IMG/VR virus record: IMGVR_UViG_3300034521_000090
Coordinates: 1-40,732 of that record
Origin: a virus
Lineage: Duplodnaviria; Caudoviricetes
Direction: 5' to 3' (one strand)
Length of the DNA: 40,732 bases
Shown: positions 1,445 to 11,573 of the stretch, piece by piece
How positions within the stretch are numbered: position 1 is the stretch's first letter
Layout of the letters: each line of letters opens with the position of its first letter
Translations under genes and position numbers: made by a program
The notes under the pieces: model-generated
What the model saw: only the letters and a program-made list of their open reading frames with translations
Database searches by the model: none
What the model was told of the DNA's origin: nothing

Positions 1445-2302
1445 ATGTTTAATGAAATTCTGAAATGGATTCTCAGTGTCGCAACTTCTACCGGTGTTAT
1501 CACGCTTGCTCTGTATTTGATGCGAGGAACTCTGATACGCATTTTTACCAAAAAAATCGAACATCACTTCGAAAAAAAACTTGAGACTTTCAAAGCAGAT
1601 ATTAGAGAAAGCGAGAAAGAATTAGAACAGATTAGGTCATTCATCGTATCGTCCCGAAGAGATCGTGATGTAGCACTACAGGTTAAGCGTTTTGAAGCTG
1701 CTGAATCTATGATGCGTGCTCGCAAATCGCTTTCAGAATTCTCAATATTAGTAGAATATATGAAAGGTTTAAATATAGATGAAATCTTAAAGAAAGGTGA
1801 TGATCCCAAAATTATTGAATTTATAAATGTATTATTAAAACCGTTGAATATTGATGAAAAAATATCTTCATATTCACTATTCGATAAATCACATTTAAAC
1901 CTTTATCTAAGTGAGAAAACTATTAAGGTATTTGATGCTTATGAGATGATTATACTTCATTCGGTTACTATGATGAGGTTACTAAGCATGCCACTAAAAA
2001 ACAAAGACCATTTAATAAATAAAGGTGATATAAGTAAATTTGTAATTGAGGCGGCACCAACCTCTAAAGAAGGATTTGAGAAGTTTGGAGAGGACTATGC
2101 CCTTCACTGGGCTAACTATTTCTATAATGAGATATTAAAGTCGTTACGCAAAGAGTTACATGGTGCCGAAAATATGGAAAGAGATACAGAATCTGCAACT
2201 AGATTAGCTTTGGACTCCAGAAAGGCGCAACTAACTATGCGATCAACGCTTGACGCTGTTGGGCTTTCTGATGCTTTGCTAAAGCCAGTCGACAACAAAT
2301 AA
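1445..2302 (+). CDS. AT-rich accessory protein with N-terminal TM segment and coiled coil; function unknown
   Basis: 285-aa ORF, GGAG RBS, hydrophobic residues ~5-27, visibly lower GC than its neighbours. Confidence 0.8.
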   Translation: MFNEILKWILSVATSTGVITLALYLMRGTLIRIFTKKIEHHFEKKLETFKADIRESEKELEQIRSFIVSSRRDRDVALQVKRFEAAESMMRARKSLSEFSILVEYMKGLNIDEILKKGDDPKIIEFINVLLKPLNIDEKISSYSLFDKSHLNLYLSEKTIKVFDAYEMIILHSVTMMRLLSMPLKNKDHLINKGDISKFVIEAAPTSKEGFEKFGEDYALHWANYFYNEILKSLRKELHGAENMERDTESATRLALDSRKAQLTMRSTLDAVGLSDALLKPVDNK

Positions 2303-7893: not shown

Positions 7894-8253
7894 TTACTGG
7901 GCCAGCTTGATAGGTGCTGTTTGAGGCGCTGGGTTGATAACTTTTAAATCAAGAGAGCACTGATCCGGGTCATCACGGAGAAGGTCACCGTCAGCGGTGG
8001 AGAACATGATGGTTTCTGCGCGGTCCAGTTCCGGGATTTTGGTAGTTACCGTAGGCGTAAGTTTTATCATGTTCTCATTACGTTTATTTAGCGGTTTTAA
8101 CTTAACAGTCAGCGTTACCGCTCCCTCTTTGTTTGTTTCCATTACAGCTTTGGTTACTTCGGCCAGCGCCTCAGTCAGTTCAGCATCCAGAGTGCCTTTA
8201 TTGATATAAGCCAGTTGCTGGCTGAATGGTGTGGTGTTCTTTGTTTCTGACAT
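7894..8253 (-). CDS. YfdP-like protein (usual partner of YfdQ)
   Basis: ELTEALAEV..AV..T.K.G.VTLT...DGDLLRDDP.Q; directly upstream of yfdQ. Confidence 0.75.
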   Translation of the reverse strand: MSETKNTTPFSQQLAYINKGTLDAELTEALAEVTKAVMETNKEGAVTLTVKLKPLNKRNENMIKLTPTVTTKIPELDRAETIMFSTADGDLLRDDPDQCSLDLKVINPAPQTAPIKLAQ

Positions 8254-8265
8254 AGTTATCTCCAG

Positions 8266-8418
8266 TTATAAACGAGGATCGCCTTTCTGAGTGAGTAACC
8301 TGCATAACCAGCTACGCCTCCAGAAATTAGCGATTGTTTTTGGATTACGAACAGCCTGCACACCACGAGTGACGCGCATCAGGTCGCCGTAGTAAAAATT
8401 AACGTTACGGAAGGTCAT
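8266..8418 (-). CDS. Small 50-aa protein, possibly CIII-like (not in ORF track)
   Basis: MTFRNVNFYYGDLMRVTRGVQAVRNPKTIANFWRRSWLCRLLTQKGDPRL; GGTGA RBS; LLTQKGDP recalls lambda CIII ILNQPGVP. Confidence 0.5.
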   Translation of the reverse strand: MTFRNVNFYYGDLMRVTRGVQAVRNPKTIANFWRRSWLCRLLTQKGDPRL

Positions 8419-8437
8419 ATAAGTCACCATTTGATTA

Positions 8438-8501
8438 GGTATCCGGCAGGAGTTGAACCCGCGCTGGGTAGGGAGTCCCAGCCGACACAGGAAGCGGACA
8501 C
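8438..8501 (-). ncRNA. tRNA-like structured RNA lacking a D-arm
   Basis: 7-bp stem GUGUCCG/CGGAUAC, T-arm GCGGG-UUCAACU-CCUGC, and hairpin GCUGGG-ACUCCCUA-CCCAGC. Confidence 0.55.
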
Positions 8502-8508
8502 ATTGAAT

Positions 8509-8603
8509 AAAAAAGGGCGGTTACCCATTAGAACATTATCTTCTTCCTCCTTTGGAATGGTGAAAGACTGGATAACCGCCAAGCCACAGCAACTATTAGA
8601 AAT
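8509..8603 (-). ncRNA. DicF-like sRNA / terminator hairpin in the pL leader
   Basis: UUUCU...UUGGCGGUUAUCCA...UGGGUAACCGCCC-UUUUUU; ends resemble Qin DicF as recalled, and the phage has DicA/DicC-like regulators. Confidence 0.4.
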
Positions 8604-8724
8604 TAGTGATTAGCTCACTTTGGTGGTGCGGTGGCCGGTGCTGATCTTCGGCTTGTCTCGGTGGACTGCAATTCACCACACCCCAAAGGGAACTAAGGAT
8701 ACTTGATATAATTTAAGTAATAAT

Positions 8725-8757
8725 ATGCCTGTCTTTTCACCACATCAGGCTCGGTGG
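8725..8757 (+). repeat. 33-bp direct repeat, copy 1 (promoter/leader of antisense cassette)
   Basis: atgcctgtcttttcaccacatcaggctcggtgg, identical to 9632-9664; followed by TGgTATCTT extended -10. Confidence 0.9.
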
Positions 8758-8795
8758 TATCTTGGTGTTCCCACACAACCAAGAAGATTAATTCA

Positions 8796-9242
8796 ATGAA
8801 CGGATACGAAAATCTTTATATAGCGATGATTCCAGGCCTTGCTGAGCACTATGGAATTACCGACTACGACTTTCGAAATAACCCGCATGCAACCAACGTT
8901 GCTTTATGTCGAAGCCATCTGCATAAACTGATGCTCATCGAGCTTTACTTGCACGAACATCGCATCAAATTTAAAAATGCTGTTTTGAATCTTGATGGCG
9001 GTGCTGCTCTGCATCATCTTGTTTTTCAGAAGACAAACTGGACTCCTGAGTCGATACGAAGCATGGGGAATTTTGACCTTCTTTGGGTTCTTCTCGACGA
9101 TCTGGTTCCTGGCAAACTGAGCGAAAAAGCGCAGAGCTATTTAGAAGTGATTTCAAAGAATGAGCGTCTTCCAAAAATTCACCTAATGAGCTACGCAGGC
9201 TGGCAGATAGGTTCAGGTGATCAGTATTTAAAAGATGAGTAA
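8796..9242 (+). CDS. Antisense moron protein, probably ECs1072-like phage family
   Basis: 148 aa from ATG 8796; L.GG.ALHHLV..KT.W....IR.M...DLL.VL pattern (family recalled, not searched). Confidence 0.65.
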   Translation: MNGYENLYIAMIPGLAEHYGITDYDFRNNPHATNVALCRSHLHKLMLIELYLHEHRIKFKNAVLNLDGGAALHHLVFQKTNWTPESIRSMGNFDLLWVLLDDLVPGKLSEKAQSYLEVISKNERLPKIHLMSYAGWQIGSGDQYLKDE

Positions 9243-9387
9243 TATTTATATGCGCACTCTCTAATTTTTCTAAAAGAGTGCGCATTCCCCAACTAACCTC
9301 GGAAATCTTCCGGTTTATCACTTCTACATCGGCTAGCTGAGTTGTTAGTTCTTCTGACAATTGTTGAGCTTCTGTAGTCACATTCAT
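8971..9387 (-). CDS. Hypothetical protein with coiled-coil N-terminus, overlapping the antisense gene
   Basis: 138-aa ORF in pL direction, GGGA RBS, heptad-like first ~75 aa. Confidence 0.45.
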   Translation of the reverse strand: MNVTTEAQQLSEELTTQLADVEVINRKISEVSWGMRTLLEKLESAHINITHLLNTDHLNLSASLRSSLGEFLEDAHSLKSLLNSSALFRSVCQEPDRREEPKEGQNSPCFVSTQESSLSSEKQDDAEQHRHQDSKQHF

Positions 9388-9618
9388 TTTTCATCCCAAT
9401 AGTCGTTATTTGCTGCTGGTGGATTCAGCCCAACCCCCTCATACGGAAGGGGCTGGAATAAATCATTTTGCGCTTGCACACTTCCCCTGCCAGTGTTCCC
9501 CATTCACGCACGAAATTTATCGTGGCTAACCCTCACACCGACCGGATCGCACCCGGTGCTACGTCGCATAAAGCGCAGGGGTCTAAACAGGTTTCATGTG
9601 CTGTTCCGACTTTGCTGA

Positions 9619-9631
9619 TTGTTAAAGAGCG
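9619..9631 (-). promoter_or_regulatory. boxA antitermination element, copy 2
   Basis: CGCTCTTTAACAA on the minus strand is consensus boxA. Confidence 0.75.
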
Positions 9632-9664
9632 ATGCCTGTCTTTTCACCACATCAGGCTCGGTGG
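9632..9664 (+). repeat. 33-bp direct repeat, copy 2
   Basis: Identical to 8725-8757. Confidence 0.9.
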
Positions 9665-9731
9665 ACCTTGCTATTCCCCAACAACAAGGATTCGGTTAAG
9701 CTGGATATCCCCAACAACAAAAGGAGTTTCT

Positions 9732-9815
9732 ATGAAGTGCAATGACTATGAAGAGCGGCACATGCCTCCTTACAGGAGGCCTGATCCACCGCCAAAACCT
9801 GATGATTCAGACTGA
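9732..9815 (+). CDS. 27-aa proline-rich peptide
   Basis: AAGGAG RBS at 9721-9726; MKCNDYEERHMPPYRRPDPPPKPDDSD. Confidence 0.6.
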   Translation: MKCNDYEERHMPPYRRPDPPPKPDDSD

Positions 9816-9823
9816 GGTGAAAT

Positions 9824-10297
9824 ATGTCCCGACATGACTTAATATTTGATATTCATTATTCGCATTACCTCGAAAAGATGTTTGCGACATTGACTGGCCG
9901 GGTTGACCGACTAATGACTTTCCTAATTATTTTGTCGGGATGTGGTGTATTTGTTTCCATCACTGGCTACGTTTGGTTTGGTGCATTCATTGCAGCCTTA
10001 TCGGTTAGCCAGGTTGTTTATCAATTCTCCCGATCTTCAGGTATTGCAAGTGAACAGGCCCGTTTATATCTGGATCTGATCACAGACGAACCCTATCTTA
10101 CGCAAGAGGAATTACTCGCGCGTTTTAAGCAATTGCAAAACACTGATTCAAAACCCTGGGGAGTCCTTGAGCTACCAGCTCAGAAAAGAGCAACGATTGT
10201 TCTTGGACTTACTGACAAAACTAGGGAGCTCAGTAAGCAAGAGGTATTCGCTGCAATGTTGGCTGGAGATCTATTGAGGAAAAATCCCAATGGTTGA
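9824..10297 (+). CDS. Two-TM membrane protein (SLATT-like architecture); candidate exclusion/abortive-infection effector
   Basis: GAGGTG RBS; two adjacent hydrophobic helices (~aa 30-47, 49-66) followed by a helical soluble tail; antisense within the pL operon. Confidence 0.8.
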   Translation: MSRHDLIFDIHYSHYLEKMFATLTGRVDRLMTFLIILSGCGVFVSITGYVWFGAFIAALSVSQVVYQFSRSSGIASEQARLYLDLITDEPYLTQEELLARFKQLQNTDSKPWGVLELPAQKRATIVLGLTDKTRELSKQEVFAAMLAGDLLRKNPNG

Positions 10298-10367
10298 AAG
10301 AGCTGGCGGTCATAAACCGACAAACCCCAGACCTCCACAGCCAGTTAAGCCAAAGCCAAAAGCTTAA
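10290..10367 (+). CDS. 25-aa proline/lysine-rich peptide (not in ORF track)
   Basis: GAGGA RBS; start overlaps the upstream stop; MVERAGGHKPTNPRPPQPVKPKPKA. Confidence 0.55.
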   Translation: MVERAGGHKPTNPRPPQPVKPKPKA

Positions 10368-10388
10368 TTGTTTTGTTGGATATCCAGA

Positions 10389-10401
10389 TTATTAAAGAGC
10401 A
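10389..10401 (-). promoter_or_regulatory. boxA antitermination element, copy 1, preceded by a hairpin (boxB-like)
   Basis: TGCTCTTTAATAA on minus, ~100 nt after pL +1. Confidence 0.7.
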
Positions 10402-10425
10402 AAGCGTCCTACTGGGCGCTTTTTG
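10401..10425 (+). terminator. Intrinsic terminator of the antisense cassette
   Basis: aaagcgtcc-tact-gggcgcttt followed by further Ts. Confidence 0.6.
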
Positions 10426-10501
10426 TTACCTGCGAATCATCCGGTCATTCATACGCCACCGGCGGCTACTTCGTGGGCGTCCTGCCTGTTCGCTTGCCTG
10501 T

Positions 10502-10560
10502 GTAACTAAAGGTACCTTTTGTTACCTTGGTAGTCAAGTGTGATATGTACCTATAGTTAC
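10502..10560 (-). promoter_or_regulatory. pL and OL operators
   Basis: Minus-strand TTGACT-17-TACCTT (10537-10509); 14-bp operators gtaactaaaggtac 10502-10515, gtaccttttgttac 10512-10525, gtacctatagttac 10547-10560. Confidence 0.85.
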
Positions 10561-10570
10561 ATGGAGTGGT

Positions 10571-10600
10571 AAAAAAATAGCCGAAGGTAACTTCGGCTAT
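10571..10600 (-). terminator. cI terminator
   Basis: atagccgaag-ttac-cttcggctat followed by a T run on the minus strand. Confidence 0.8.
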
Positions 10601-10621
10601 AGAGGGAGAGGGGAGGGGGAA

Positions 10622-11281
10622 TTAAAGGTTTTGTGTAATCTGTACTACTCGGCCAACAATTCTACAGTTCCCATCGATCTGAATTGGTTTGAAAATCGGG
10701 TTAAGTGGCATGAGATAGGCATATGGACTATCCCAAACCAACTTTTTGACCGTAGCCTCTGTTGAACCATCTAACATAGCCACGACAATCTTTCCATACA
10801 GATCATCAAGTTGACCATAATGTGGCTCAACTATAACAATTGAACCTTCCGGAATTGATGGTAGTCCGTGAGGGTTAGTCATTGATTCGCCTCTTACTTC
10901 AAGCCCGAAAGCTTCATCGGAGACGTTAGCAGTCGTTTGTGTCCAGCAAATCACATCAGTAAGCCTTGAGCTGGCGTAAGTATCGGTCCACACACCTGCC
11001 TGAACGGCAGATATAACAGGTACAGTCACTGGCGGTTTAAGAAAGGGCATCACCTTAATATCGTCTTTAGCTACCTCTCCTTCACCATAGAGAATCCACT
11101 CCGGGCTTACCTGGAGAGCCAAAGCAAGTTGATGAAGATTTTCCCCATCAGGCTTGGTTGTGCCGTTTTCCCACTTTGTTACAGATACACGACTGACCCC
11201 AAGTTTTTTGGCGAGGGTTGATTGTGTTATGTCGAGCTGAACTCTGCGGGAGCGGATTCGATCTTTCATTTCTGTTTTCAT
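10622..11281 (-). CDS. cI: CI repressor (P22 c2/DicA-like HTH plus S24 autoprotease)
   Basis: HTH ITQSTLAKKLGVSRVSVTKWE, AG cleavage site (VQAG), RGESM serine, TVKK lysine. Confidence 0.95.
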   Translation of the reverse strand: MKTEMKDRIRSRRVQLDITQSTLAKKLGVSRVSVTKWENGTTKPDGENLHQLALALQVSPEWILYGEGEVAKDDIKVMPFLKPPVTVPVISAVQAGVWTDTYASSRLTDVICWTQTTANVSDEAFGLEVRGESMTNPHGLPSIPEGSIVIVEPHYGQLDDLYGKIVVAMLDGSTEATVKKLVWDSPYAYLMPLNPIFKPIQIDGNCRIVGRVVQITQNL

Positions 11282-11346
11282 GTAACCAATGTTACCAATG
11301 ATTGAAGTAACTTTTGTTTGCTATTTGTGGTACCTTTTGTTACCTT
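11282..11346. promoter_or_regulatory. OR operators with pR and pRM
   Basis: gtaaccaatgttac 11282-11295, gtaacttttgtttg 11307-11320, gtaccttttgttac 11330-11343; pR TTGCTA-17-TACCTT (11318-11346); pRM TGgTAACAT on minus. Confidence 0.85.
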
Positions 11347-11372
11347 CGGTTCATCAGATAACAGGAGTAACC

Positions 11373-11573
11373 ATGCGAAAACATGAAGTCATAGAGTATT
11401 TCGGCGGTGTGTCAAAAACCGCCAGTACTTTAGGGATTTCTCATCCTGCGGTTTGCCGCTGGGGTGAGGTGATCCCTGAAAAACAGGCATTTGTTATTGA
11501 GCGCCTCACAAATGGAAAGCTTAAGTACGACGCCAATCTTTACCAAAAGTCTACCAATGCTGGCGTGCAATAG
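11373..11573 (+). CDS. cro: Cro (P22 Cro/DicC-like)
   Basis: MRKHEVIEYFGG..KTA..LGIS.PAV.RWGEVIPEK; CAGGAG RBS. Confidence 0.92.
   Translation: MRKHEVIEYFGGVSKTASTLGISHPAVCRWGEVIPEKQAFVIERLTNGKLKYDANLYQKSTNAGVQ

What the first reader, a model, noticed from the sequence alone, without database searches (positions are those of the whole stretch)
9732..10367. Membrane effector bracketed by two tiny proline-rich peptides: candidate new three-gene defence or exclusion system
Seen: an operon antisense to pL, each ORF with its own RBS: MKCNDYEERHMPPYRRPDPPPKPDDSD (27 aa), a 157-aa 2-TM protein, and MVERAGGHKPTNPRPPQPVKPKPKA (25 aa, start overlapping the upstream stop), then a terminator. Known: 2-TM SLATT-type proteins are predicted effectors in conflict systems; PPP stalls ribosomes without EF-P; PRPP-rich peptides such as apidaecin bind ribosomes and DnaK. 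Inference: the peptides may be antitoxins or gating ligands of the membrane protein, or translation-speed sensors that trigger it during infection. Standard annotation would miss both peptides.
Basis: partly seen in the sequence, partly recalled or inferred. Interest (0 to 1): 0.8.

Follow-up and report, generated by a model that had tools for sequence, protein, structure and literature searches.

The report
Proline-peptide-controlled SLATT-like phage membrane module
A temperate phage carries two tiny proline-rich peptide genes flanking a gene for a predicted two-helix membrane protein, a pairing kept in dozens of distant relatives, and it likely works as an anti-phage suicide switch that the peptides would hold shut, which is untested.

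Summary
The three ORFs are real. Both peptide genes are under purifying selection in their own frame (pN/pS 0.17 and 0.34; shifted frames 1.5-1.8). The 157-aa protein (phrog_6315) has a SLATT-like fold, below Pfam cut-offs. A Pro-rich sORF lies directly upstream in 23 of 37 distant clade-A clusters against 7 of 160 background ORFs, and in 38 of 51 clusters of a sister clade against 11 of 155. Each clade has its own peptide motif. Copies vary from one to three, and downstream alleles are swapped. No nucleotide-signalling enzyme was found among 92 neighbours. The upstream element precedes SieB in other phages. Best reading (0.40): an abortive-exclusion module with the peptides as antitoxins. A cis stalling sensor is unlikely. 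Against: five clusters keep the membrane gene without a peptide, and no function was tested. Members sit in Fels-2 and in E. coli prophages, so it is easy to test. I found no description in ten literature searches. The scan had not noted this family, but twice noted an analogous DUF6338 module.

The parts
9632..9664 (+). Putative promoter element (33 nt, exact second copy at 8725-8757) that heads antisense morons in leftward early operons; precedes sieB in other phages
   Evidence: 127 matches in 122 viral loci, up to 25 cargo groups, 10 matches SieB-type and 7 this cassette. Promoter activity inferred; one search found no sigma70 match here
9697..9720 (.). Left arm of an inverted repeat that brackets the three ORFs
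   Evidence: conserved in sequence in the lambdoid clade but not covarying
9721..9726 (+). Shine-Dalgarno site of sORF1
   Evidence: sequence
9732..9815 (+). sORF1, 27-aa His/Pro-rich peptide with motif H-x(3-6)-R-P-x-P
   Evidence: (pN/pS 0.17)
9814..9819 (+). Shine-Dalgarno site of the membrane gene, overlapping the sORF1 stop
   Evidence: sequence
9824..10297 (+). 157-aa SLATT-like two-helix membrane protein (phrog_6315)
   Evidence: (pLDDT 93.6)
10290..10367 (+). sORF2, 25-aa His/Pro-rich peptide with the same motif; alleles exchanged between close relatives
   Evidence: (pN/pS 0.34)
10368..10391 (.). Right arm of the inverted repeat
10389..10400 (-). boxA-like site on the leftward (pL) strand; consensus recalled, not tested
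   Evidence: sequence; conserved in relatives
10398..10427 (+). Intrinsic-terminator-like hairpin and U-tract
   Evidence: z -3.5; conserved in relatives; not listed

Best explanation
This is a small phage operon in which Pro-rich peptide genes travel with a predicted SLATT-fold membrane protein, and it likely acts in the lysogen as a toxin-antitoxin-like exclusion module whose peptides would bind the membrane protein and keep it shut until infection removes them. Shown: the anatomy, coding-level selection on both peptides, and their linkage to the membrane gene in two distant clades. Predicted: SLATT-like fold with cytoplasmic ends. Inferred: expression in the lysogen from its own promoter; direct binding through the clade-specific motif (H-x(3-6)-R-P-x-P in clade A, [DN]-T-x-x-P-P in clade B); excess of peptide over an oligomeric effector, which would explain the one to three copies; loss or displacement of the short, disordered peptides when a foreign phage takes over the cell; membrane permeabilisation and abortive infection.
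For: Linkage: 23 of 37 clade-A clusters vs 7 of 160 background ORFs at 4 or more Pro, 20 of 37 vs 1 of 160 at 5 or more; 38 of 51 clade-B clusters vs 11 of 155. Selection on the peptides. The motif changes with the clade of the membrane protein, as expected of partners. SLATT likeness: 9 of the top 22 viral-structure rows are named SLATT; sub-threshold SLATT_4 hits in distant members; 15 of 30 Atlas hits for a clade-B member are SLATT_4 clusters; 6 of 123 members hit a PADLOC 2TM 'Effector' model weakly (best E 7.6e-5). SLATT is a CBASS effector (PMC11381338, passages) and is predicted to control membrane permeability (PMC9503650, passage). No SMODS, SLOG or TIR domain among 92 neighbours, so control must come from elsewhere. 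Context: six different prophage slots; nearest downstream ORF on the opposite strand in 28 of 37 clade-A clusters; 9 of 41 same-strand upstream neighbours in clade B are repressor-like; the same upstream element precedes SieB. Direction: peptide gene comes first; three loci have an intact peptide and a broken membrane gene (L114, L115, L154); the five peptide-less clusters keep 12.0 of 18 conserved residues against 15.6 (p 0.003).
Against: No toxicity, protection, expression or binding is shown. Five of 37 clusters have a full-length membrane gene and no recognisable peptide (L032, L050, L150, L151, L152), including a chromosomal lineage next to sopE/sopE2 that is full-length in five loci; four more have only Pro-poor sORFs. 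A strict toxin should not survive that, and the residue-drift test is confounded by distance from the profile, rests on my own labels and has n = 5. Both one-sided losses occur, which fits 'both parts needed, neither toxic alone' equally well. SLATT scores are all below curated cut-offs and no Foldseek row reaches E 0.001. Most cargo groups behind the shared upstream element have no known defence function. Few defence-island neighbours. The window's own protein has Leu at a position that is Pro in 83 of 113 homologues.
Confidence: 0.4

Rival explanations
1. Same defence role, opposite sign: the peptides are the activating ligand or sensor. A phage enzyme would cut or modify them near the conserved His (or Thr in clade B), or a phage protein would bring them together, and the product would open the SLATT-like channel, standing in for the cyclic nucleotide of CBASS.
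For: Loss of either part is tolerated in nature. The peptide has a variable charged front and a fixed motif before the Pro-rich tail. Downstream alleles are swapped between 84-87% identical hosts, arrays of three occur (L031, L365, L367) and two loci carry tandem motifs in one ORF (L117, L130), like a library of sensors.
Against: No processing enzyme is linked. Broken membrane genes with intact peptides and drift in peptide-less copies fit a costly effector.
Confidence: 0.2
2. A lysogenic-conversion module unrelated to phage defence: a peptide-regulated membrane protein that tunes envelope or ion physiology of the host.
For: A peptide-less copy is kept full-length in a chromosomal lineage; others sit among housekeeping genes (L032). 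The analogous P. stutzeri peptides are well expressed without infection (PMC10433244, passages).
Against: SLATT likeness, the SieB-type slot, rapid exchange of alleles and patchy spread (33 of 401 genomes of one family) are typical of conflict genes.
Confidence: 0.2
3. The peptides are the toxins, acting like insect proline-rich antimicrobial peptides on the ribosome or DnaK, and the membrane protein exports or neutralises them.
For: R-P-x-P and PRP motifs resemble those peptides (recalled). The P. stutzeri authors raise an antimicrobial role for their Pro-rich proteins. Peptide-less membrane genes would be harmless.
Against: No signal peptide or double-glycine leader by eye; many are acidic at both ends; no exporter or protease among 92 neighbours; intact peptides persist beside broken membrane genes in three loci; some homologues have 1-3 Pro.
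Confidence: 0.08
4. sORF1 is a cis-acting leader whose polyproline stalling (EF-P, tRNA-Pro) sets translation of the membrane gene.
For: It ends within about 25 nt of the start codon in most loci and its stop overlaps the next SD; hairpins fold across this junction (z -2.9).
Against: His-to-start distance 54-96 nt, 195 in L130; in L031 and L130 the peptides end 94-140 nt upstream; sORF2 has the same motif and selection but only a terminator behind it; the Fels-2 peptide has no PP pair.
Confidence: 0.07

Closest known systems
SLATT 2TM effectors (Pfam SLATT_1/4/5, clan CL0676), e.g. type I CBASS SLATT effector and phage TIR-SLATT pairs (PMC11381338, PMC9503650; passages read)
   Same: Long helix, hydrophobic hairpin, long helix; weak profile, embedding and fold matches; carried by phages.
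   Different: Below all curated cut-offs; no nucleotide-signal enzyme among 92 neighbours; partner is a Pro-rich micropeptide.
DUF6338 operon with three Pro-rich small proteins of Pseudomonas stutzeri ATCC 14405 (PMC10433244, passages read)
   Same: Membrane protein of unknown function with several Pro-rich sORFs missed by annotation; peptides detected by mass spectrometry, partner not detected.
   Different: No DUF6338 hit among 123 and 73 members scanned; function unknown there too; paper reports those peptides as not conserved beyond the species.
SieB / Esc / sas of phages P22 and lambda (PMC12197685, review passage read)
   Same: Exclusion gene with a small inhibitor; the same 32-nt upstream element precedes SieB in 10 of 127 matches.
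   Different: No sequence relation (no SieB hit); the peptides are separate genes, whereas the review describes a translational switch between products of sieB.
Prophage toxin-antitoxin defence systems with very small antitoxins (Brenes and Laub 2025; recalled, paper not held)
   Same: Prophage moron, toxin plus tiny protein.
   Different: Recalled effector is a HEPN nuclease, not a membrane protein; no Pro-rich arrays recalled.
Proline-rich antimicrobial peptides (apidaecin, oncocin, pyrrhocoricin; recalled)
   Same: PRP-like motifs, 20-30 aa.
   Different: Cytoplasmic, often acidic, no secretion signal, obligate-looking link to a membrane gene.

Membership tests
SLATT superfamily | Two membrane helices in a helical hairpin with cytoplasmic flanks | tested here: met
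   Model H3-41, H49-66, H68-91; hydropathy peaks over residues 30-66
SLATT superfamily | Match to a Pfam SLATT family above its cut-off | tested here: not met
   None for the window protein; best in 123 clade-A members SLATT_4 E 0.041; distant L034 E 0.002, L037 24.2 bits vs cut-off 27; clade B SLATT_1 E 0.0016
SLATT superfamily | Structural likeness to SLATT proteins | tested here: inconclusive
   9 of top 22 BFVD rows are named SLATT, probability 0.77-1.00, TM 0.32-0.59, but E 0.027-0.43; Atlas SLATT_4 clusters at 0.90 and 0.94
CBASS / SLOG / TIR-SLATT systems | Adjacent nucleotide-signal enzyme | tested here: not met
   None among 92 of 146 nearest neighbours scanned with Pfam at E 1e-5, nor in ten annotated regions
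SieB/Esc exclusion | SieB sequence family | tested here: not met
   No SieB hit for the window protein or its alignments, while L160 and L218 hit SieB at 1e-19 and 5e-18
SieB/Esc exclusion | Antisense position in the leftward early operon behind the shared upstream element | tested here: met
Type II-like toxin-antitoxin module | Small gene directly upstream of the putative toxin in one operon | tested here: met
Type II-like toxin-antitoxin module | Toxicity of one product, neutralised by the other | not testable with these tools
   Needs expression tests; natural losses point both ways
Fold-back-regulated type I toxin mRNAs (hok-like; recalled) | Covarying 5'-3' long-range pairing | tested here: not met
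   16 distinct arm pairs: one compensatory change, most other changes break pairs; cognate duplexes -23.0 vs non-cognate -21.4 kcal/mol
DUF6338 plus Pro-rich peptides | DUF6338 domain | tested here: not met
   Not among the Pfam hits listed for A2 (25 of 28 families shown) or A5
Cis-acting arrest or polyproline leader peptides (recalled) | Fixed spacing of the motif to the regulated start codon | tested here: not met
   54-96 nt, 195 nt in L130; copies with no gene downstream

The most novel reading that the evidence does not exclude
A large, undescribed branch of SLATT-like channels is gated by genetically encoded Pro-rich micropeptides instead of nucleotide second messengers, with exchangeable arrays of one to three peptides acting as a sensor or decoy library; the DUF6338 modules would be a second, independent use of the same principle.
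Probability: 0.3. Interest if true: 0.88.

Novelty: new variant of a known kind. Interest (0 to 1): 0.7.

Why it matters
SLATT effectors are known from systems with a nucleotide-signal enzyme; here the only constant partner is a 25-70 aa Pro-rich peptide that gene callers usually miss, so defence screens that clone annotated genes would lose or misread it. The module occurs in at least 88 sequence clusters (37 + 51 at 75% identity) and hides in well-studied genomes: in Fels-2 of Salmonella LT2 the record annotates an ORF on the opposite strand, and Fels-2-type copies are in 40 of 5,426 complete E. coli genomes. A single cloning experiment would decide the sign of the peptide's action and give a handle on how SLATT channels are gated and on what the abundant Pro-rich microproteins of the DUF6338 operons do.

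Tried and rejected
Complex prediction: two copies of the L134 membrane protein with its own 30-aa upstream peptide gave 'no answer' (0.05, mark 0.32); no evidence either way. Solved structures: no Foldseek match at E 0.001, best VIA Z 7.2 on generic coiled coils, profile searches of PDB sequences gave only designed repeats or nothing. RNA: public RNA runs hold the Fels-2 locus only as contigs; in one run a separate contig spans L069 1800-2647, but it is one study and contigs show no strand or level, so I draw nothing from it. Rfam: nothing meaningful in 8200-11400. The bracketing inverted repeat pairs in folds of either strand (probability 0.6-0.96) but does not covary, is limited to the lambdoid clade and also flanks at least one other cargo, so I did not make it part of the mechanism. 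The Met after the His as an inner start: rejected, since the position is V, L, I, A, K or R elsewhere. PADLOC and NCBIfam give no real hit for the close family. Viral scans with P0062 and P0057 found no relatives; tblastn with P0147 none. Literature: ten searches found no paper on this family or on SLATT with proline-rich peptides; three E. coli accessions were absent from the ten held DefensePredictor supplements (one file cut; positive control found); PMC13069673 and PMC13092281 main texts had no SLATT or proline passage. Subscription papers and bioRxiv supplements were not searchable, so a tested member may exist there.

Full report
Observation. The window is a temperate lambdoid phage record (integrase at 199, cI at 10622-11281); the closest named homologues of the 157-aa protein are from Klebsiella and Citrobacter. 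The three ORFs, their SD sites and a terminator-like hairpin are present as described. The terminator scan missed the hairpin and found no promoter upstream. A 33-nt element at 9632 is repeated exactly at 8725, in front of a second rightward gene.

The peptides are genes. All 17 first viral relatives keep both sORFs. In the 27 loci of the four closest clusters, an amino-acid pattern found sORF1 in 26 and sORF2 in 23; the five misses all hold a different His/Pro-rich ORF at the same place. pN/pS is 0.17 for sORF1, 0.34 for sORF2, 0.18 for the Fels-2-type peptide (65 of 65 loci, 17 alleles) and 0.30 for the membrane gene; shifted frames give 1.1-3.1. Values are pooled over related pairs and uncorrected, so they show direction only.

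The membrane protein. It is phrog_6315, unknown function, with 260 representatives at E 0.001 or better. The model is confident (pLDDT 93.6): long helix, hydrophobic hairpin, long helix, three short helices. Several weak lines point to SLATT: 9 of the top 22 viral-structure rows, Atlas neighbours, sub-threshold Pfam hits in distant members and weak PADLOC 2TM 'Effector' and RTasSLATT hits (6 and 3 of 123 members). None passes a curated cut-off, so I call it SLATT-like, not a SLATT member.

Linkage. Of 157 loci, 150 had a hit and fell into 52 clusters at 75% identity; I dropped 9 partial or broken clusters and 6 intact ones under 75 bits, leaving 37. A fixed rule (15-70 aa ORF ending -45 to +12 of the start, 4 or more Pro in the last 25 residues) was met by 23 of 37 against 7 of 160 other long ORFs in the same loci; at 5 Pro, 20 of 37 against 1 of 160. 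By eye, five more have a clear peptide that is Pro-poorer or further upstream, four have a weak sORF and five have none. A sister clade (profile match 98.4%, E 1e-14; 254 proteins) gave 51 intact clusters from 93 loci; with a slightly wider rule 38 of 51 pass against 11 of 155. Clade A peptides share H-x(3-6)-R-P-x-P (24 peptides chosen by me); clade B peptides are 50-70 aa and share [DN]-T-x-x-P-P (74 of 83 loci, not dereplicated, motif read from the same data). Copy number varies: three upstream in L031, one upstream and two downstream in the E. coli loci L365-L367, tandem motifs within one ORF in L117 and L130. Relatives at 84-87% identity carry a quite different downstream peptide (L121, L122).

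Context. Clade A copies are mostly stand-alone units facing against their neighbours (28 of 37 downstream, 23 of 37 upstream), in unrelated slots: after pL, after fil in P2-like Fels-2, between Q and the lysis genes, before terminase. In Fels-2 and vB_YenM_42.18 the records annotate the opposite strand. Clade B copies mostly follow a same-strand gene (41 of 48), repressor-like in 9 of the 41. I scanned 92 of 146 nearest neighbours and found no SMODS, SLOG or TIR domain; two were restriction-type. The 32-nt element heads up to 25 cargo groups in 127 matches (30 had no assignable ORF); 10 are SieB-type and 7 are this cassette, and most others have no known function (group representatives scanned). 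Spread is patchy: 33 of 401 genomes in one family, 15 of 401 in the order (four look spurious), 5 of 401 in the class.

Direction of control. Broken copies: peptide intact with membrane gene broken in L114, L115 and L154 (some may be assembly errors); both broken in L019 and L025-L027. Full-length membrane gene without peptide in five clusters, which keep 12.0 of 18 conserved residues against 15.6 in the 28 with peptide (p 0.003; confounded by distance and my labels). This leans to a costly effector restrained by peptides but does not exclude peptides as activators. A cis stalling role fits poorly.

Mechanism. Most likely (0.40) the lysogen makes the membrane protein with an excess of short, disordered peptides that bind it through the motif; infection by a foreign phage would remove or displace them, and the channel would open and abort infection. 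With the activator variant (0.20), defence of some kind has about 0.6. Every step after the anatomy is inferred.

Comparison and novelty. It works most like SLATT effectors (PMC11381338 and PMC9503650, passages) in a SieB-type slot (PMC12197685, passage), but with a peptide in place of a nucleotide signal. The nearest architecture in print is the P. stutzeri DUF6338 operon, whose three Pro-rich proteins were detected at 44-114 spectra while the partner was not (PMC10433244, passages); two earlier scan notes pointed me to it. I saw search listings only for the other papers; Brenes and Laub 2025, PrAMPs, hok-type folding, arrest peptides and the boxA consensus are recalled. Ten searches found no description of this family (listed under Tried and rejected); supplements of preprints and subscription papers could hold a tested member. 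Verdict: real, widespread, undescribed in what I could search, function untested; new variant of a known kind; interest 0.7.

Noticed in passing
window 8725-9290: A second rightward moron (147-aa ORF from 8799, phrog_5286, unknown) behind an exact copy of the same 33-nt element, closed by a strong hairpin at 9250-9285 (z -8.3).
   Followed up: partly
window 9633-9664; L157-L278: This element heads many exchangeable antisense genes in lambdoid early operons, among them SieB, BssS-like and a dozen unknown PHROG families: a ready list of exclusion candidates.
   Followed up: partly
window 9697-9720 and 10368-10391: Inverted repeat bracketing the operon, one arm next to a boxA-like site on the pL strand; conserved in sequence, not covarying, also around other cargo. 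May bear on antisense control of the sas type.
   Followed up: partly
window 9620-9631 and 10389-10400 (- strand): Two boxA-like sites in the leftward transcript, on either side of the cassette; no N-like gene was identified (the 138-aa ORF 8971-9387 has no Pfam or PHROG hit).
   Followed up: no
L042:2887-3435 (Fels-2, NC_010463.1): Peptide and membrane gene lie on the + strand next to fil; the record annotates STM2733.1 on the opposite strand instead. Same in vB_YenM_42.18.
   Followed up: yes
L050, L051, L148-L150: A peptide-less, full-length lineage with charged residues at the end of the second helix and Tyr82 changed to Trp; next to sopE/sopE2 in L051 and L150: relic or domesticated gene.
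   Followed up: partly
G001 (L018, L020, L022, L024-L027): Eight matches in one small genome (Ca. Phlomobacter fragariae), two with intact peptide and membrane gene and the others read here in decay.
   Followed up: partly
L362: A weak member whose upstream peptide has a GY-x-P-P motif instead of either clade motif; a third clade is likely.
   Followed up: no
window 1445-2302: 285-aa rightward ORF after the integrase with no Pfam or PHROG hit; another moron candidate.
   Followed up: no
window 10502-10528 and 11329-11346: Operator-like repeats on both sides of cI.
   Followed up: no
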